Assembly (NCBI GenBank): GCA_964436015.1 | Contig: CAYTAR010000001.1 | Span: 92,321-156,320 of the forward strand | DNA length: 64,000 nt | Direction of reading: 5' to 3' | Source: an uncultured Candidatus Saccharibacteria bacterium | GTDB lineage: Bacteria > Patescibacteriota > Minisyncoccia > Phycocordibacterales > GCA-2401445 | Part shown: positions 50,640 through 57,366 of the stretch, piece by piece | How positions within the stretch are numbered: position 1 is the stretch's first letter | How the letters are laid out: each line of letters opens with the position of its first letter | Made by a program: the position numbers and the translations under genes | Notes under the pieces: generated by a model | Databases searched by the model: none | What the model saw: only the letters and a program-made list of their open reading frames with translations | What the model was told of the DNA's origin: nothing

Positions 50640-50850
50640 ACACCTCCATATGGTTTAGGTTAGGAACTGCCTCTATTTATCATCGCATATCCTATGCTTT
50701 TGCCAAGGATATATAAAATGGACGCATTTCATGTTTGTTTCAAGCTTTCAATGGTTACTGTCCTACGTCGCAAGACTATTCAAATTATCCTAAATTCCTT
50801 GGGACGCCCCACTTGCGGAAACATGAGTGTGGTAAATTTTGGCCTAAATC

Positions 50851-51381
50851 TTAACACAATTTTACATTAGGTTGGTGCTTATATAAAACTTTAAGTTTCT
50901 CAAGTCCTCTATGTAATCGCACGCTAATAGCATTTTTTGATTGTCCAGTAAGTAAGGATATCTCTTTGAGGGACAAATCTTGAGAATATTTCATAAGCAT
51001 TACCTTCCTATATGATATTGGAAGACGTCCCAATAACAGAAAAGCAATTTCTCCATCTAAAATATTTTGTACATGCCGAGGAGTTTTTTCCTTTGGTTTA
51101 AATCCTTTTTCTATAAGACTGTCTAAGGAAACTGGTTTTTTCTTTCGATATTCATCTATAATAAGGTTATTGAGAATGTGATAAAGAAAAGCCTTTATTG
51201 AATGAATTTCTCTTCCCTTAAGAAGATACACCCATGTTTTCATAAAAGTTTGCTGAACTAGATCCTTTCCAAGATCATAATCGCCTATTTTATAAAAGGC
51301 GTGTGAATTTAAGCCCTTCTCATAATCATGATGGGCTTTGGACAATATTTCTTTCAAATTTTCTGTTTGAGTGAGTGTCAT
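50851..51381 (-). CDS. ECF-type sigma-70 family factor
   Basis: Region 2 (FMKTWVYLLKG...IIDEYRKK) and region 4 HTH (LKEISLLTGQSKNAISVRLHRG). Confidence 0.85.
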   Translation of the reverse strand: MTLTQTENLKEILSKAHHDYEKGLNSHAFYKIGDYDLGKDLVQQTFMKTWVYLLKGREIHSIKAFLYHILNNLIIDEYRKKKPVSLDSLIEKGFKPKEKTPRHVQNILDGEIAFLLLGRLPISYRKVMLMKYSQDLSLKEISLLTGQSKNAISVRLHRGLEKLKVLYKHQPNVKLC

Positions 51382-51550
51382 AATTTAATGTAATTTTAAT
51401 GTTATTATAATTAAAATAAATAGTCAAGAAGCAACATATACATATATATGTATAAACTGTGTATAAGTTTAATGTAAACTTAACTTTAGGAATTAATATA
51501 AAGTTAACAAAGAGCTTGCAAACACTAATAAATGGTTATATACTCTAGCA

Positions 51551-52219
51551 ATGTCAATACTGATAATTGAAGACGAGGAAAAATTAGTTGATATATTAAA
51601 AGTAGCTCTCAAGGGCCAACGTTATACAGTTGATGTGGCTTATGATGGAGAAGAAGGCCTAAAAAAGGCCATGAAAAATGACTATAGTCTGATTATTTTA
51701 GATATTATGCTTCCCAAAAAAGATGGCTTTACCCTATGCAAAGAACTTAGAGCTCACCAAATCCACACACCCATCATCATGCTTACAGCAAGGGGTACTG
51801 AGGAAGATAGAATCACCGGTCTTGATAATGGAGCTGATGACTATCTTATTAAGCCTTTTGGTCTTAATGAACTGTTTTCACGAATTCGTGCTGTCTTACG
51901 TCGCCGAAAAACAACCGATTCAAATATCATAAAAATAGCTGACCTAATAATGGACAGTAAGAAACATGAGGTAACTCGTGCTGGCAAAATCATTGCTCTC
52001 ACCCCAAAGGAATACAAGCTTCTTAATACCCTACTCTCTCATCAGGGTGAAGCAGTCAACAGACGCAAACTTATTGATCATGCTTGGGGTCCAGAATTTA
52101 AAGAAACGAATAATGAATTAAACGTCCATATAAAATATTTGCGAACAAAAATAAATAAAAGTAACGAAAAAGAGCTTATTCACACAATACGAGGTGTTGG
52201 TTTTATGTTGAAAGAATAG
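51551..52219 (+). CDS. OmpR-family response regulator
   Basis: Receiver domain (IIEDEEK...LDIMLPKKDG...MLTARG) and a winged-helix output domain (VHIKYLRTKI). Confidence 0.9.
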   Translation: MSILIIEDEEKLVDILKVALKGQRYTVDVAYDGEEGLKKAMKNDYSLIILDIMLPKKDGFTLCKELRAHQIHTPIIMLTARGTEEDRITGLDNGADDYLIKPFGLNELFSRIRAVLRRRKTTDSNIIKIADLIMDSKKHEVTRAGKIIALTPKEYKLLNTLLSHQGEAVNRRKLIDHAWGPEFKETNNELNVHIKYLRTKINKSNEKELIHTIRGVGFMLKE

Positions 52220-52334
52220 GCCTGAGGACTTGCGTAAATCTGATTTTTGTTTTACAATATTTATAGATAGACACCAGAACAAACAAATTCCCTCACAACG
52301 AGAGGATCCTCCACAATTTAATAGAAGGAACAAC

Positions 52335-53036
52335 ATGAAAAAAAACTCTGGAGAATACTGGGATTCTAGGCTCAGACAGAGTCAAGATAACCCTTTCCCA
52401 CTAGCCCCTGCTGACTTGCTCAAAAAAGGATTAGTGAACGCAGCTAATTACTCCACCCAAAACATGAGATTCGGCTTGTTCTGCCAACGAAAGATGTTGG
52501 CGGAACTTGAAAATCTCAATCGTGATGGAGAAATCGAGATTTTTGGAATAGGTCTCGCAAGGGACATCGGGTGGGTACTGAAAGCTATAGAACATTTCGG
52601 TGTTAAAATGTGGGACCACAGCACAGTGGCACGTCAAAATGCCACGCTTGTACTCCGTCCCAGAACATGGTTGCAGATGGTGGAAATCGCTGAAGGTGAA
52701 GTCATGAAGGGATGGAAAGCCGGTCAGATAGACCGGGAAGGGGTAATGGCAATCTATGCTTCACAGTTCCTAGAACATCAGGGTGATGCATTGAAAAGTT
52801 TCGCGTATCACTTTGGTAAGTTCCTCCGAGTTCCCGATAGAAGGATCTATCTAGTACTCCCCCGTTTGGAGGACAATCCTCCCGACAAAGTGAAGTGGGA
52901 TTCAGCTGTTCCCCCCCTCGATCATGAGTGGCAAGTACCACTCAATGAGGGGTTCGGTGGACTAACGAATATTTGTAAGCTAGGAACACACAAATATTTT
53001 CACCGGAGATACACATTCTTCCGGATCAGCGGATAA
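52335..53036 (+). CDS. Hypothetical protein, GC-rich, inserted between the response-regulator and kinase genes
   Basis: The ATG is preceded by aaggaa, and GC is about 46% against 25-36% in the flanks. There is a possible GxGxxA/G nucleotide-binding-like loop (EIFGIGLARDIG), with weak support. Confidence 0.45.
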   Translation: MKKNSGEYWDSRLRQSQDNPFPLAPADLLKKGLVNAANYSTQNMRFGLFCQRKMLAELENLNRDGEIEIFGIGLARDIGWVLKAIEHFGVKMWDHSTVARQNATLVLRPRTWLQMVEIAEGEVMKGWKAGQIDREGVMAIYASQFLEHQGDALKSFAYHFGKFLRVPDRRIYLVLPRLEDNPPDKVKWDSAVPPLDHEWQVPLNEGFGGLTNICKLGTHKYFHRRYTFFRISG

Positions 53037-53102
53037 AGCATCAGGGAGGGAGAGGAAAAACCTATTCTCTCCCTTTTTTCTTTAATTTAGTATCATAAAA
53101 AA

Positions 53103-54314
53103 ATGAATCGAAAAAAAGACACAATTTTAAAAAAAATTACTCTACTGAATAAAACTATTCTTGACTCCATGACAGAGAAAGATAACAACGCAATAGTTAA
53201 GAATTTTACCGATGATGCAATTGAAATTTTAGAGGCAGATTTCGGCTTTGCTTGGTGGAAATTTAGTGATAAAGATGAATATAAGTTGGCTTATAAAAGT
53301 CCAAGCACACCCTATAGTCCATTCCTACCAAGAGATAGAGCAAATCATTATACAGCTATAAAAAATAAAAAACCTCTTTTTCAAAGTGATATAAAAAAGG
53401 AAGATTATAAATCATCCGATATCACTCCCTATATGAAAAGTTTCGTTATCATACCTATTCACCATGAAAAAAATATATACGGTAGCCTTACATTGTGCTA
53501 TAAAAAGCGTCATAATTTTACCAAAGAAGAACTAACGTTAGCGCAAGCTATAGGACATACCACTGCCCAAGCCATTACTATTCATAAATTATACAAAATA
53601 GATGCTCTTCTCCGAGAAGAGAGGTCAAAAACAGAATTTATAGCAAACGCAACACATGAGCTACGAACTCCTCTTGCTATCATGAAAGGCAACGTAGACT
53701 TGGCACTAACCGATAAGAAAAATTTAAAGTTATCCCAAAAAGCTTTACAGAAGGTGGACGAAGAAATAAACAATTTGTCGAATATCATAAAAAACTTATA
53801 CTTAATTACTTCTCCTGGTCAAAATGTAGAAAGGGTAATAAATCCAATTACTGTAAATATTACAGACTTAATACATAAGTTAGTAAAAAGATTGAAAGTA
53901 ATGGCGGTAGAAAAAAATATACAAATAAAATTTAATAAGGAAGAAGCGAATTTATTTATTACTGGAAATGAAGAATACCTAACAGAATTGTTTCTTAATA
54001 TAATAAAAAACTCCATAACTTATGGAAAAAATAATGGAAAAACTTTCATTGATATTTCTGCAGAAAAAAATAAAGTTAAAATAAAAATAGCTGATAATGG
54101 CATAGGAATATCAAAAGAGGATTTGCCAAAAATATTTGACCGTTTTTATAAAGGCGATAAGGCCCACTCTAATGTTTCTTATAAAAATAATTCTGGGCTC
54201 GGGCTTGCCATAGCAAAATGGGCAGCAGAAATACATGGCGGAACAATACAAGTAAAAAGTACCCTCGGTAAAGGTAGTGTTTTTAGTGTAGTACTACCAG
54301 TGTCTAAATCTTAA
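53103..54314 (+). CDS. Cytoplasmic sensor histidine kinase (GAF-like N-terminus, HisKA, HATPase_c)
   Basis: H-box ANATHELRTPL, N-box, and G-boxes DNGIGISKEDLPKIFDRFYKGD and GLGLAIAK. No TM helices. Confidence 0.9.
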   Translation: MNRKKDTILKKITLLNKTILDSMTEKDNNAIVKNFTDDAIEILEADFGFAWWKFSDKDEYKLAYKSPSTPYSPFLPRDRANHYTAIKNKKPLFQSDIKKEDYKSSDITPYMKSFVIIPIHHEKNIYGSLTLCYKKRHNFTKEELTLAQAIGHTTAQAITIHKLYKIDALLREERSKTEFIANATHELRTPLAIMKGNVDLALTDKKNLKLSQKALQKVDEEINNLSNIIKNLYLITSPGQNVERVINPITVNITDLIHKLVKRLKVMAVEKNIQIKFNKEEANLFITGNEEYLTELFLNIIKNSITYGKNNGKTFIDISAEKNKVKIKIADNGIGISKEDLPKIFDRFYKGDKAHSNVSYKNNSGLGLAIAKWAAEIHGGTIQVKSTLGKGSVFSVVLPVSKS

Positions 54315-54327
54315 ACTCTATCACACC
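54304..54327 (+). repeat. 24-bp direct repeat, copy 1 (ctaaatcttaaactctatcacacc), overlapping the kinase stop codon
   Basis: Matches 54510-54533 at 22 of 24 positions. Confidence 0.7.
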
Positions 54328-54341
54328 ATTGTCTTTATATC

Positions 54342-54370
54342 TTGACAAGATTAAGGTAGTCTGCTATAAT
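54342..54370 (+). promoter_or_regulatory. Consensus sigma70 promoter TTGACA-N17-TATAAT
   Basis: TTGACA at 54342-54347 and TATAAT at 54365-54370, a perfect match to both hexamers with a 17-nt spacer. Confidence 0.6.
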
Positions 54371-54376
54371 ACAGGT

Positions 54377-54507
54377 ATAATAGTACTTCCTGGCGCCGGG
54401 ATCACTAGGGCCCGTTTCCGCAAGGAAATGATGTGTTTAAGATAAGGTAGCTTATAAGAAACCTTTCATTAACCCGCTAAGACTTAGGTCAAGGCGGGTT
54501 TCTTCTT
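54377..54507 (+). ncRNA. Candidate ~130-nt small RNA
   Basis: Bounded by the consensus promoter and by the intrinsic terminator acccgc...gcgggt plus ttcttcttg (54472-54507). There is no ORF, and the 5' part is GC-rich (ggcgccgggatcactagggcccg). Confidence 0.4.
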
Positions 54508-54509
54508 GC

Positions 54510-54533
54510 CTAAATCTTAAACTCAATCACATC
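54510..54533 (+). repeat. 24-bp direct repeat, copy 2 (ctaaatcttaaactcaatcacatc), overlapping the ychF stop codon
   Basis: See copy 1. Together the two copies frame the ~180-bp promoter-sRNA-terminator module. Confidence 0.7.
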
Positions 54534-55619
54534 TCCGTCCTTTACCACGTATTCCTTCCCTTCAGTCCTAATCAATCCTTTTTCTCGAGCTTGTGCGTAC
54601 GAACCAGAATCAATTAAATCTTTCCAGAAAACTACCTCGGCTCTAATAAACTTATCCTTAAAATCAGTATGGATCGCAGTACCTGCAATTGGAGCCGTGG
54701 AGCCCTTTTGTATCGTCCACGCACGTGTCTCATCTTCTCCGGTCGTAAAATAGGTCATGAGGTTAAGCATTGAGTAACCCGCAACAATGAGGTTATTTAT
54801 TCCATCATCGTTAGCGCCCAACTCCTTTCTGAAAAGCTCTTTCTCTTCCCCCTCAAGCTCTTTAATTTCGCTTTCAATGTGGGCATCAACTACCACAGAG
54901 TGCGCATTATTTTCTTTCAAAAAAGTTTGCAACTTCTCATATTTCTGCTTGTGAATAGGATCCGTGCTCGTATCCAAGTTTACTCCGCCAGACTTTCTAT
55001 TTAATACATACAGAAAAGGCTTCATGGTAAGTAGGTGAACACTCTTAACTATTTCTAATTCATCAGTGCTTAGTTCAGCAGTATTTGCAAGCTTTCCTTG
55101 AGAGAGAACTTTTTCTATTTTTTGGATTGCCCCGTGTTCTTTAATTGCATTCTTATCTCCTCGCTTTACATCTCTCCCGAGAGAGTCAAGACGCTTTGTT
55201 ACCGTTTGCTGGTCCGCAAGAATAAGCTCAAGGTTTATCACCTCAATATCAGACACAGGGTCTACATCGTTGTGTACATGTGTAATATCTGGATCAACAA
55301 ATATACGTACCACCTCCGCAATTGCATTTGTCTCACGAATATTTGCAAGAAATTTATTCCCTAACCCCTCCCCTTCACTTGCGCCTTTAACCAGTCCTGC
55401 AATATCAACAAATTCAACCGCTGCAGGTACTGTTTTCTTTGAAGAACTAAACTCAGACAAAGTCCACAGACGAGAGTCAGGCACCGCAACGACGCCAACG
55501 GATGGGTCAATCGTACAAAAAGGAAAGTTTGCAGCATCAACGGATTTTTTTGTAAGTGCGTTAAAAAGCGTTGACTTCCCAACGTTTGGCAATCCGACAA
55601 TTCCTATGCTTAATGACAT
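54510..55619 (-). CDS. ychF: Ribosome-binding ATPase YchF (Obg-family GTPase)
   Basis: G1 motif GIVGLPNVGKST and a TGS C-terminal domain. The start was trimmed to MSLSIGIV. Confidence 0.92.
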   Translation of the reverse strand: MSLSIGIVGLPNVGKSTLFNALTKKSVDAANFPFCTIDPSVGVVAVPDSRLWTLSEFSSSKKTVPAAVEFVDIAGLVKGASEGEGLGNKFLANIRETNAIAEVVRIFVDPDITHVHNDVDPVSDIEVINLELILADQQTVTKRLDSLGRDVKRGDKNAIKEHGAIQKIEKVLSQGKLANTAELSTDELEIVKSVHLLTMKPFLYVLNRKSGGVNLDTSTDPIHKQKYEKLQTFLKENNAHSVVVDAHIESEIKELEGEEKELFRKELGANDDGINNLIVAGYSMLNLMTYFTTGEDETRAWTIQKGSTAPIAGTAIHTDFKDKFIRAEVVFWKDLIDSGSYAQAREKGLIRTEGKEYVVKDGDVIEFKI

Positions 55620-57204: not shown

Positions 57205-57240
57205 ACGCAAAACCGCGCGATTCTATCGCGCGGTTTTTTC
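57205..57240 (+). terminator. Intrinsic terminator, repeat module copy B
   Basis: Sequence acgcaaaaccgcgcgat-tct-atcgcgcggtttttt, with a stem nearly identical to copy A. Confidence 0.8.
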
Positions 57241-57366
57241 TTATCTCTTATCTCCAATCTCTACTCTCTTTTCTCTACCTTTTCCCTCTTCCCTTTTTCC
57301 TTTTCTAATCTCTAATCTCCGTTTTCTATTTCCAATCTCTTATCTCTTTTCTCTAATCTCTACCTT
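57241..57366. repeat. Pyrimidine-rich repeat tract, locus C
   Basis: Contains a 38-mer (57286-57323) identical to 8381-8418, plus additional tctctaatctc units. Confidence 0.7.

What the first reader, a model, noticed from the sequence alone, without database searches (positions are those of the whole stretch)
54304..54533. Self-contained ~130-nt candidate sRNA with a perfect consensus promoter, framed by 24-bp direct repeats that overlap two stop codons
Between the histidine-kinase stop and the convergent ychF stop lies a textbook TTGACA-17-TATAAT promoter (54342-54370). About 130 nt of ORF-free sequence with a GC-rich 5' stem region follows, then an intrinsic terminator (54472-54507). The whole ~180-bp module is bracketed by ctaaatcttaaactcTatcacaCc / ctaaatcttaaactcAatcacaTc (22/24 identical). 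These repeats look like a target-site duplication or the ends of a small insertion module. Perfect-consensus promoters are rare in this otherwise SD-poor, AT-rich genome, which argues for a highly expressed small RNA. Possibilities include an SRP/6S-like housekeeping RNA or a mobile sRNA cassette.
Basis: seen in the sequence. Interest (0 to 1): 0.65.

Follow-up and report, generated by a model that had tools for sequence, protein, structure and literature searches.

The report
Orphan RNA cassette inserted at ychF end
The "direct repeats" are two copies of the last ten codons of the ychF gene, left by a 206-bp insertion into the gene's end in an uncultured Patescibacteria genome; the insert carries only a consensus promoter and a terminator, so it probably makes an unconserved ~130-nt RNA, not a housekeeping RNA.

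Summary
The window's only perfect TTGACA-17-TGcTATAAT promoter is there. About 100 ORF-free nt follow, then a strong terminator hairpin. A direct repeat frames the module and is really 36 nt long.

The repeat is not a transposon target duplication. The right copy is the working end of ychF (KDGDVIEFKI*). The left copy is a displaced relic of that end (KDNGVIEFKI*), and the histidine-kinase stop codon now lies inside it.

The same footprint occurs in 11 other genomes among the 79 ychF loci scanned (all Paceibacteria-type Patescibacteria). It lies 77-713 nt downstream of ychF, with unrelated compact cargo: NUDIX, DUF6881, small membrane proteins, or ORF-free promoter-to-terminator units. In four loci the two copies differ only at synonymous sites. 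Both copies therefore evolved as real ychF ends, which marks a Campbell-type integration that regenerates the gene's end. No recombinase was found.

The RNA has no Rfam match and no homologue anywhere searched. Its body folds no better than shuffled sequence. The closest relative (YchF 82%) carries a NUDIX gene in its place. SRP or 6S RNA is excluded. A lineage-specific, cassette-borne transcription unit is the best reading. Expression and function are untested.

The parts
54301..54336 (-). Relic (displaced) copy of the ychF 3' end. On the minus strand it reads KDNGVIEFKI* plus 3 nt. The HK stop codon TAA (54312-54314, + strand) lies inside it.
54342..54370 (+). Consensus sigma-70 promoter TTGACA-17-TATAAT with an extended -10 (TG at 54362-54363). 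A second TATAAT lies at 54376-54381.
54377..54506 (+). Predicted ~130-nt non-coding transcript. The start is inferred as about 7 nt after the -10 box. There is no ORF, no Rfam match and no homologue.
54471..54506 (+). Intrinsic terminator: hairpin 54471-54500 (-17.1 kcal/mol) plus a U-rich tail. On the minus strand the same hairpin (-14.6 kcal/mol) follows the ychF stop but lacks a good U run. It is also the only terminator downstream of the HK operon.
   Evidence: sequence
54507..54542 (-). Functional copy of the ychF 3' end (KDGDVIEFKI*, stop at 54510-54512), joined in frame to the ychF body.
54510..55616 (-). ychF (redox-regulated ATPase). The Pfam YchF-GTPase_C domain reaches the last residue, so the gene end is intact.
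53103..54314 (+). GAF-HisKA-HATPase histidine kinase. Its last four codons and stop are encoded in the relic.
54432..54443 (+). UGUGUUUAAGAU inside the RNA, an inverted partial match to the repeat core. Marginal (p about 0.02) and absent from analogous modules, so probably chance.
50842..50854 (-). Possible older, decayed ychF-end relic (13-nt exact GCCTAAATCTTAA). It sits at the far edge of the low-GC sigma/RR/HK block and overlaps the sigma-factor stop. It is not significant window-wide.

Best explanation
The genome is a CPR/Patescibacteria (Paceibacteria, Yonathbacteria-like) MAG.

What happened: a 206-bp piece of DNA was inserted into the 3' end of ychF by a Campbell-type, single-crossover event. 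Whether that event was site-specific or homology-driven is unknown. In the ychF direction, the inserted piece consists of a ychF-end sequence (or part of one), then a hairpin terminator, about 100 nt of unique sequence, and a consensus promoter that faces back toward ychF.

What it left: integration gave ychF an intact end at 54507-54542 and pushed a second copy of that end to 54301-54336. That displaced copy is decaying, and the neighbouring histidine-kinase gene now terminates inside it.

The cargo: a compact convergent transcription unit. RNA polymerase should start near 54377 and stop at the hairpin 54471-54500, giving a ~130-nt non-coding RNA. The same hairpin also ends the HK operon transcript and probably the ychF transcript.

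The RNA: lineage-specific and cassette-borne, not a housekeeping RNA. If functional, it most likely acts in trans by base pairing, since its body is weakly structured.

Shown: the anatomy, the ychF-end identity of the repeats, recurrence of the footprint with other cargo, the empty sites, and the absence of homologues.

Inferred: the integration mechanism, transcription of the module, and any function.
For: 1. Repeat identity. On the minus strand the left copy reads KDNGVIEFKI* and the right copy KDGDVIEFKI*. The right copy completes the Pfam YchF-GTPase_C domain.

2. Backbone and empty site. In many relatives ychF is followed directly by DUF5671-LeuRS-sigma4. Examples are L003, L034, L046, L029 and L094. 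The window instead has about 4.2 kb between ychF and the conserved hyp270/DUF5671 genes (hyp49803 is 39% identical to the L081 orthologue).

3. Recurrence. In 12 genomes among the 79 loci scanned (13 loci, because L081 and L082 are two assemblies of one genome), this window included, a same-strand copy of the last 10 codons plus stop (at least 23 of 33 nt) lies 77-713 nt downstream of ychF. Upstream control regions gave no such match; the only two high scores there were self-matches from an indexing artefact. L040 has three copies.

4. Synonymous-only differences. L031 has 7 of 7 differing codons synonymous, L040 copy 1 has 6 of 6, L049 has 5 of 5 (including Ser TCG versus AGT), and L016 has 2 of 2. 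Both copies therefore evolved as functional ychF ends. This matches elements that integrate into the 3' end of a conserved gene. SGI1 at trmE is one example (PMC8409611). Phage 21 and e14 at icd are another (from my own knowledge).

5. Cargo is always a compact unit. It is NUDIX in L081, DUF6881 in L009 and L038, an EamA/SMR-like protein in L016, and small proteins in L079, L049 and L037. L040 (two units) and L063 carry ORF-free units. In those, a minus-strand promoter abuts the relic and a terminator abuts the ychF stop, as in the window.

6. Shared junction. The window and L040 module 2 share the relic-to-promoter junction CTATCACACCA-N8-11-TATCTTGAC.

7. Signals. The promoter is perfect and unique in the window, and the terminator is strong.

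8. Not an assembly artefact. L081 (an NCBI MAG) and L082 (an independent Logan assembly) show the same structure.
Against: - No integrase or other recombinase is in or near the module. A Xer-type recombinase query found nothing in the window or in the ychF loci.
- A 206-bp unit cannot move by itself.
- No ychF-end mimic was found on viral contigs.
- The RNA has no homologue in 85 ychF loci, phages or plasmids. A junction-pattern scan of JGI metagenomes gave only chance hits.
- The bodies of the analogous ORF-free modules are mutually unalignable (p = 0.3-0.9).
- The body fold is not better than shuffles (z = -0.9).
- No significant target was found among 67 translation-initiation regions of the window.
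- For this window alone, the copies differ at 2 synonymous and 2 non-synonymous codons. An in-situ duplication followed by decay cannot be excluded.
- Expression is untested.
Confidence: 0.6

Rival explanations
1. Functionless debris. The module is what remains of a cassette whose gene was lost. A promoter and a terminator still stand, so a junk transcript may be made, but nothing is selected.
For: The body is unstructured (z = -0.9) and has no homologues. The closest relative has a different, frameshifted cargo at the same place. In L079 and L049 the same position holds a promoter, a small protein gene and a terminator. In L031 the insert is only a hairpin. The ORF-free modules have unrelated bodies.
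Against: The promoter matches at all 14 scored positions (12 of 12 plus TG) and the terminator stem is intact, while the adjacent relic has 6 changes in 33 nt. Under equal neutral decay I estimate about a 10% chance of zero hits in 14 positions. That is a weak argument for maintenance. ORF-free units recur in L040 (twice) and L063.
Confidence: 0.25
2. In-situ tandem duplication of the ychF end, for example by slippage. The DNA between the copies would be ordinary intergenic sequence, and the promoter would be a chance or decayed signal.
For: In this window the copies differ by both synonymous and non-synonymous changes. No recombinase was found.
Against: The 170 bp between the copies has no similarity to ychF or to downstream DNA of relatives. 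The footprint recurs with unrelated cargo and with synonymous-only differences. The upstream boundary of the duplication lies at about -33 nt in 8 of 12 cases (my reading of the sequences).
Confidence: 0.07
3. Transposon or MITE insertion with a long target-site duplication.
For: Direct repeats flank a small non-coding insert.
Against: There are no terminal inverted repeats at 54337 and 54506. The module has no other copy in the 64-kb window. At 36 nt the repeat is far longer than a typical target duplication of 2-14 bp (general knowledge). The repeat encodes a gene end, and in relatives the copies differ only synonymously.
Confidence: 0.03
4. Housekeeping RNA such as SRP 4.5S or 6S RNA.
For: A strong promoter, a terminator and a size near 130 nt.
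Against: There is no Rfam hit at E <= 10 on the region and none at gathering score in the window. The module is absent from the syntenic site of the closest relative and from all other ychF loci. No known RNA other than tRNAs is found near ychF in 16 relatives. In the predicted fold the 5' and 3' ends do not pair into a rod.
Confidence: 0.01
5. Guide-type RNA of an RNA-directed recombination system (bridge-RNA-like) that targets the ychF end.
For: The RNA contains UGUGUUUAAGAU, which is complementary to the repeat core. The analogous modules share promoter and terminator frames but have variable bodies.
Against: The match is marginal (p about 0.02) and is absent from L040 m1, L040 m2, L063 and L045. 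No recombinase gene is adjacent. IS110-type insertion leaves a core duplication of only a few bases, not 33-36 nt (own knowledge).
Confidence: 0.03

Closest known systems
Integrative elements that insert into the 3' end of a conserved protein gene and regenerate it. Examples are SGI1 and relatives at trmE and yicC (PMC8409611), and phage 21 and e14 at icd (own knowledge).
   Same: Direct repeats made of the gene's 3' end flank the insert. The gene stays intact. A displaced copy sits at the far side. In relatives the two copies differ synonymously. Tandem stacking occurs (L040; SGI1 tandem arrays, from the title of PMC2297512, which I did not read).
   Different: The inserts here are 77-713 bp with a single transcription unit. 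They have no integrase, excisionase or mobilisation genes. The target is ychF, the host is CPR, and one class of cargo is ORF-free.
Integron gene cassettes
   Same: Compact, mostly single-gene cassettes are stacked at one site, and the cargo is diverse and accessory.
   Different: No intI gene and no attC-type imperfect palindrome were seen. The recombination site is a coding gene end. The cassettes carry their own promoters.
Orphan, horizontally acquired bacterial sRNA genes, such as island- or prophage-encoded sRNAs with their own promoter and intrinsic terminator
   Same: Own sigma-70 promoter, rho-independent terminator, about 130 nt, no ORF, located in acquired DNA.
   Different: There is no expression data, no chaperone or target context and no conservation.
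IMEX elements and dif modules that use XerCD
   Same: Small integrase-less modules are flanked by repeated recombination sites and stacked next to the functional site.
   Different: GC skew keeps one sign across the whole window, so this is not the terminus or dif. The repeat lacks a dif-like two-arm palindrome (by inspection).

Membership tests
Bacterial small SRP RNA (Rfam RF00169) and 6S RNA (RF00013) | Match to the family covariance model | tested here: not met
   No such hit at E <= 10 on 54200-54650, and none at gathering score in the whole window.
Bacterial small SRP RNA (Rfam RF00169) and 6S RNA (RF00013) | Conserved across related genomes, as expected for an essential housekeeping gene | tested here: not met
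   Absent from the syntenic site of L081 (YchF 82%). No blastn hit in any of the 85 other ychF loci, and no nhmmer hit in the 80 loci where that was also run.
6S RNA | Long rod in which the 5' and 3' ends pair around a central bubble | tested here: not met
   The minimum-energy and centroid folds show separate local hairpins, and the ends do not pair.
Independent sRNA gene (operational definition) | Own promoter | tested here: met
   12 of 12 consensus positions plus TG, and unique in the window.
Independent sRNA gene (operational definition) | Intrinsic terminator at the 3' end | tested here: met
   Hairpin of -17.1 kcal/mol, z = -3.9, with a U-rich tail.
Independent sRNA gene (operational definition) | No coding potential | tested here: met
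   No ORF of 30 aa or more starts inside the transcript. The longest ATG-initiated frame I read by eye is 5 codons.
Independent sRNA gene (operational definition) | Detected transcript | not testable with these tools
   No expression data are available.
Independent sRNA gene (operational definition) | Sequence or structure conservation, or covariation | tested here: not met
   No homologues were found. The body fold has z = -0.9.
Integrative element at the 3' end of a gene (SGI1/trmE or phage 21/icd type) | Direct repeats (attL/attR) that contain the gene's 3' end, with the gene left intact | tested here: met
Integrative element at the 3' end of a gene (SGI1/trmE or phage 21/icd type) | Empty site in related genomes | tested here: met
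   ychF abuts DUF5671 in L003, L034, L046 and L094. These relatives share only about 60-73% YchF identity with the window.
Integrative element at the 3' end of a gene (SGI1/trmE or phage 21/icd type) | The replacement end evolved as coding sequence, so the copies differ synonymously | tested here: inconclusive
   Met in L031, L040, L049 and L016. In the window the copies differ at 2 synonymous and 2 non-synonymous codons.
Integrative element at the 3' end of a gene (SGI1/trmE or phage 21/icd type) | Integrase or recombinase encoded in the element | tested here: not met
   The module is 170 bp without an ORF. Pfam on the neighbouring genes shows sigma factor, response regulator and HK only. A Xer-type tblastn query was negative.
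Transposon or MITE | Terminal inverted repeats and a short target-site duplication | tested here: not met
   No inverted repeat lies at the module ends, and the duplication is 36 nt.
Transposon or MITE | Multiple copies in the genome | tested here: not met
   There is no second copy in the 64-kb window. The rest of the genome was not available.
Diversity-generating retroelement (template/variable repeat pair at a gene's 3' end) | All mismatches fall at template adenines, and a reverse transcriptase is nearby | tested here: not met
   Four of the 6 mismatches have A in the relic and 2 do not (sequences). No reverse-transcriptase domain is among the neighbours scanned.
IS110-type bridge RNA | Adjacent DEDD/Tnp recombinase, with loops complementary to target and donor | tested here: not met
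   No recombinase gene is adjacent. The complementarity is marginal and not shared by the analogous modules.

The most novel reading that the evidence does not exclude
In Paceibacteria the last 33 nt of ychF may serve as a dedicated capture site. Miniature, integrase-less cassettes of 0.08-0.7 kb would be stacked there, with the youngest next to ychF. Each cassette is one transcription unit and brings its own ychF-end mimic and terminator. A recombinase encoded elsewhere, or homologous recombination after DNA uptake, would move them. This would resemble an integron whose attachment site is a gene end. One cassette class is ORF-free: it has a conserved promoter and terminator frame around an unrelated ~100-nt body (this window, L040 twice, L063). 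These bodies could be exchangeable regulatory or guide-like RNAs.
Probability: 0.15. Interest if true: 0.7.

Novelty: new variant of a known kind. Interest (0 to 1): 0.4.

Why it matters
Mobile DNA and small RNAs of CPR/Patescibacteria are almost uncharacterised, because these organisms are uncultured and have tiny genomes.

The finding shows that the 3' end of ychF is a recurrent entry point for very small accessory cassettes in this group. One of these cassettes is a promoter-plus-terminator RNA unit. If such units are transcribed and exchanged between lineages, they would be a cheap route to regulatory innovation in streamlined genomes. The ychF-end footprint would also give a simple computational handle for finding recently acquired DNA in these MAGs.

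The RNA alone, an orphan without conservation or expression data, is a modest candidate.

Tried and rejected
- Rfam on the region at E <= 10, on the whole window, on the L040 modules and on 16 related loci gave only chance miRNA/leader matches and tRNAs.
- ARAGORN found no tRNA or tmRNA in the window.
- blastn and nhmmer of the module against the first 80 ychF loci, and blastn against the HK-homologue loci and further ychF loci fetched later, gave only the ychF-end match.
- The NUDIX cassette of L081 shows no homology to the module.
- HK homologues (61-67% identity) sit in unrelated contexts with no such module downstream, so the RNA is not linked to the HK.
- A 23-mer from the RNA and two degenerate ychF-end patterns found nothing on viral contigs.
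- A relic-promoter junction pattern in JGI metagenomes gave 7 hits, all chance.
- Distant blastn against phages and plasmids found nothing.
- The dif/XerCD idea is rejected. GC skew has one sign across the window and no Xer homologue was found.
- The DGR idea is rejected (see the membership tests).
- The guide-RNA idea rests on an inverted mini-copy with p about 0.02 that is not shared by other modules.
- Pairwise alignment of the RNA bodies of the window, L040 m1, L040 m2 and L045 showed no similarity. No covariance model could therefore be built.
- A target scan of 67 translation-initiation regions was no better than shuffled RNA. A whole-window duplex scan timed out.
- The third repeat copy at 50842-50854 is suggestive by position but not significant window-wide.
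- Exact-sequence look-ups of the window's own YchF, including the 100%-identical entry P0001, found no record. The source contig itself could not be fetched.
Full report
**Observation**

The region reads as described. The promoter scan finds TTGACA-17-TATAAT at 54342-54370 with 12 of 12 matches and TG before the -10 box. A scan of both strands of the 64-kb window finds no other perfect match and only five one-mismatch sites.

The hairpin 54471-54500 folds at -17.1 kcal/mol (z = -3.9; none of 200 shuffles is as stable) and is followed by UCUUCUU. No ORF starts inside the predicted transcript.

The repeat is longer than reported. It spans 36 nt, 54301-54336 versus 54507-54542, at 81% identity and 206-nt spacing. 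Its 22-nt core occurs only at these two places in the window, against zero expected.

**What the repeats are**

The right copy is the end of ychF on the minus strand (...YVVKDGDVIEFKI*). It completes the Pfam YchF-GTPase_C domain. The left copy, read in the same sense, is KDNGVIEFKI*. It is a relic of the last ten codons plus stop of ychF. The histidine-kinase gene (GAF-HisKA-HATPase) ends four codons into this relic.

**Organism and backbone**

YchF relatives are all Patescibacteria (Yonathbacteria, Paceibacteria and similar). The best species-representative genome reaches 72% identity. The closest genome overall is GCA_040879725.1 at 82%.

In many relatives ychF is followed directly, on the same strand, by DUF5671, LeuRS and a sigma4-domain gene. 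Examples are L003, L034, L046 and L094, the last with a 70-nt gap. These are the empty sites.

The window instead holds, between ychF and the conserved hyp270/DUF5671 pair:
- the 170-bp module;
- the relic;
- a low-GC block with the HK, a 268-aa hypothetical protein, an OmpR-type response regulator and an ECF-like sigma factor.

hyp49803 is 39% identical to the L081 orthologue.

**The closest relative**

In L081 a frameshifted NUDIX gene follows ychF. After it comes a relic ychF end, AAAGATGGCGGTGTCATAGAGTTTAAGATTTAG, which reads KDGGVIEFKI*. The independent Logan assembly L082 shows the same structure.

The relic is therefore shared with the window, including the derived bases TAT.ACACC. The cargo between the copies is different and unrelated.

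**Recurrence**

For each of 79 ychF loci I compared its own last 33 nt with the 3 kb downstream. In 12 genomes (13 loci, since L081 and L082 are one genome), the window included, a same-strand copy with at least 23 of 33 identities lies 77-713 nt downstream. It always ends in a stop codon at the corresponding position. Upstream control regions gave no such match; the two perfect scores seen there (L050, L068) were self-matches from an indexing artefact.

L040 has three copies. L035 and L023 have inverted copies.

The method has one known false positive. In L094 a GAEIEFKI peptide motif inside LeuRS scores 25 of 33. It lies in a coding gene and has no stop codon.

**Nature of the differences**

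In four loci every differing codon is synonymous:
- L031: 7 of 7;
- L040 copy 1: 6 of 6;
- L049: 5 of 5, including Ser TCG versus AGT and the lineage-specific ending KHS*;
- L016: 2 of 2.

A relic decaying in place would collect mostly non-synonymous changes. Both copies must therefore have evolved as ends of working ychF genes before being placed side by side.

This is the signature of integration into the 3' end of a protein gene by DNA that brings a replacement end. Known examples are SGI1-type islands at trmE and yicC (PMC8409611) and phage 21 and e14 at icd (my own knowledge; the one paper I opened did not contain the term in its main text).

By my reading of the sequences, the upstream boundary of the duplication lies at about -33 nt in 8 of 12 cases. 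A fixed boundary suggests a site-specific process or a shared founding event.

In the window, all six differences lie in the upstream 18 nt. The stop-proximal 15 nt are identical, as expected if the exchange happens near the stop codon. That last step is inference.

**Cargo**

The DNA between the copies is always compact and varied:
- NUDIX in L081;
- DUF6881 in L009 and L038, in opposite orientations;
- an EamA/SMR-like membrane protein in L016;
- small unknown proteins in L079, L049 and L037;
- only a hairpin in L031.

The window, L040 (two stacked units) and L063 carry ORF-free units with the same layout. A minus-strand promoter lies 4-6 nt from the relic. A variable body follows. Then a hairpin whose U-tail (TTTCTTCTTGC, TTTTTTCTTGC or TTTTTTCTTGT) abuts the stop codon of the next ychF-end copy. 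L045 has a promoter-to-terminator unit in the same orientation after ychF, but no ychF-end relic was found there and its terminator sits about 50 nt from the stop.

The window and L040 module 2 share the junction CTATCACACCA-N8-11-TATCTTGAC. In L040 the relic nearest ychF differs at 6 synonymous sites, and the farther relic at 12 sites, 6 codons of them non-synonymous. This fits stacking with the youngest unit next to ychF.

**The RNA itself**

- Rfam finds nothing on the region, the window, the L040 modules or 16 related loci.
- No homologue appears in any fetched locus, in phage or plasmid collections, or on viral contigs.
- A junction-pattern scan of metagenomes gave only chance hits.
- The body 54377-54470 folds no better than shuffles (z = -0.9). 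The full transcript's z of -2.3 is mostly the terminator.
- The bodies of the analogous modules are not alignable (p = 0.3-0.9), so no covariation test is possible.
- A 12-nt inverted match to the repeat core inside the RNA is marginal (p about 0.02) and is not seen in the other modules.
- No convincing target was found among 67 start regions in the window.

**Mechanism**

- Shown: the footprint, its recurrence, the empty sites and the synonymous signature.
- Not found: any recombinase. Pfam on the neighbouring genes and a Xer-type tblastn query were negative. No viral attP-like ychF-end mimic was found.
- Excluded: a dif/Xer explanation. GC skew has the same sign across the whole window.

How these tiny units enter therefore stays open. 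It could be a trans-acting recombinase, or homologous recombination after DNA uptake with the ychF end as the handle.

**Verdict**

It is not a housekeeping RNA, and the repeats are not a transposon target duplication.

My confidence in each step:
- about 0.9 that the repeats are a ychF-end integration footprint;
- about 0.55 that the module is transcribed as a discrete RNA;
- about 0.3 that the RNA has a selected function.

The recurrent ychF-end cassette site in Paceibacteria is the more interesting result and deserves a systematic survey.

Noticed in passing
window 50650-54300: A low-GC block (about 30% against about 42% for the window) holds an ECF-like sigma factor (50851-51381, minus strand), an OmpR-type response regulator (51551-52219), a 268-aa hypothetical protein (52230-53036, higher GC) and the GAF histidine kinase. 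It is absent from this position in relatives. L078 has sigma, RR (73% identity) and HK upstream of ychF instead. HK homologues elsewhere are always preceded by a hypothetical gene of about 240 aa.
   Followed up: partly
window 50842-50854: A 13-nt exact match to the ychF-end core (GCCTAAATCTTAA) overlaps the sigma-factor stop at the far edge of the low-GC block. It could be an older relic, which would make the sigma/RR/HK block an earlier cassette. It is not significant window-wide.
   Followed up: partly
window 57239-57361: About 18 degenerate copies of a 7-nt unit (TCTTATC/TCTAATC) form a pyrimidine-rich tract (GC skew -0.6). It lies directly after a terminator at 57210-57238 and next to the 3' end of a 76-aa minus-strand ORF.
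   Followed up: no
L040 5096-5660: The 750-nt gap between ychF and LeuRS holds at least three ychF-end copies and four minus-strand terminators in a row. Together they form a stack of ORF-free mini transcription units.
   Followed up: partly
L035 1226-1246; L023 5126-5144: An inverted copy of the last codons of ychF lies immediately after the stop. It forms a long hairpin that includes coding sequence.
   Followed up: no
L081 9764-10145 (and L082): The NUDIX cassette after ychF is split by a frameshift in two independent assemblies. It is either a pseudogene or a real frameshift.
   Followed up: partly
L094 7185-10559; L095 6876-8729: The LeuRS genes of these relatives carry NUDIX-domain hits inside the synthetase. 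The window's LeuRS (822 aa) is of ordinary length.
   Followed up: no
L009 5104-5396; L038 1798-2082: Two unrelated lineages carry DUF6881 genes as the ychF-end cassette cargo, in opposite orientations.
   Followed up: partly
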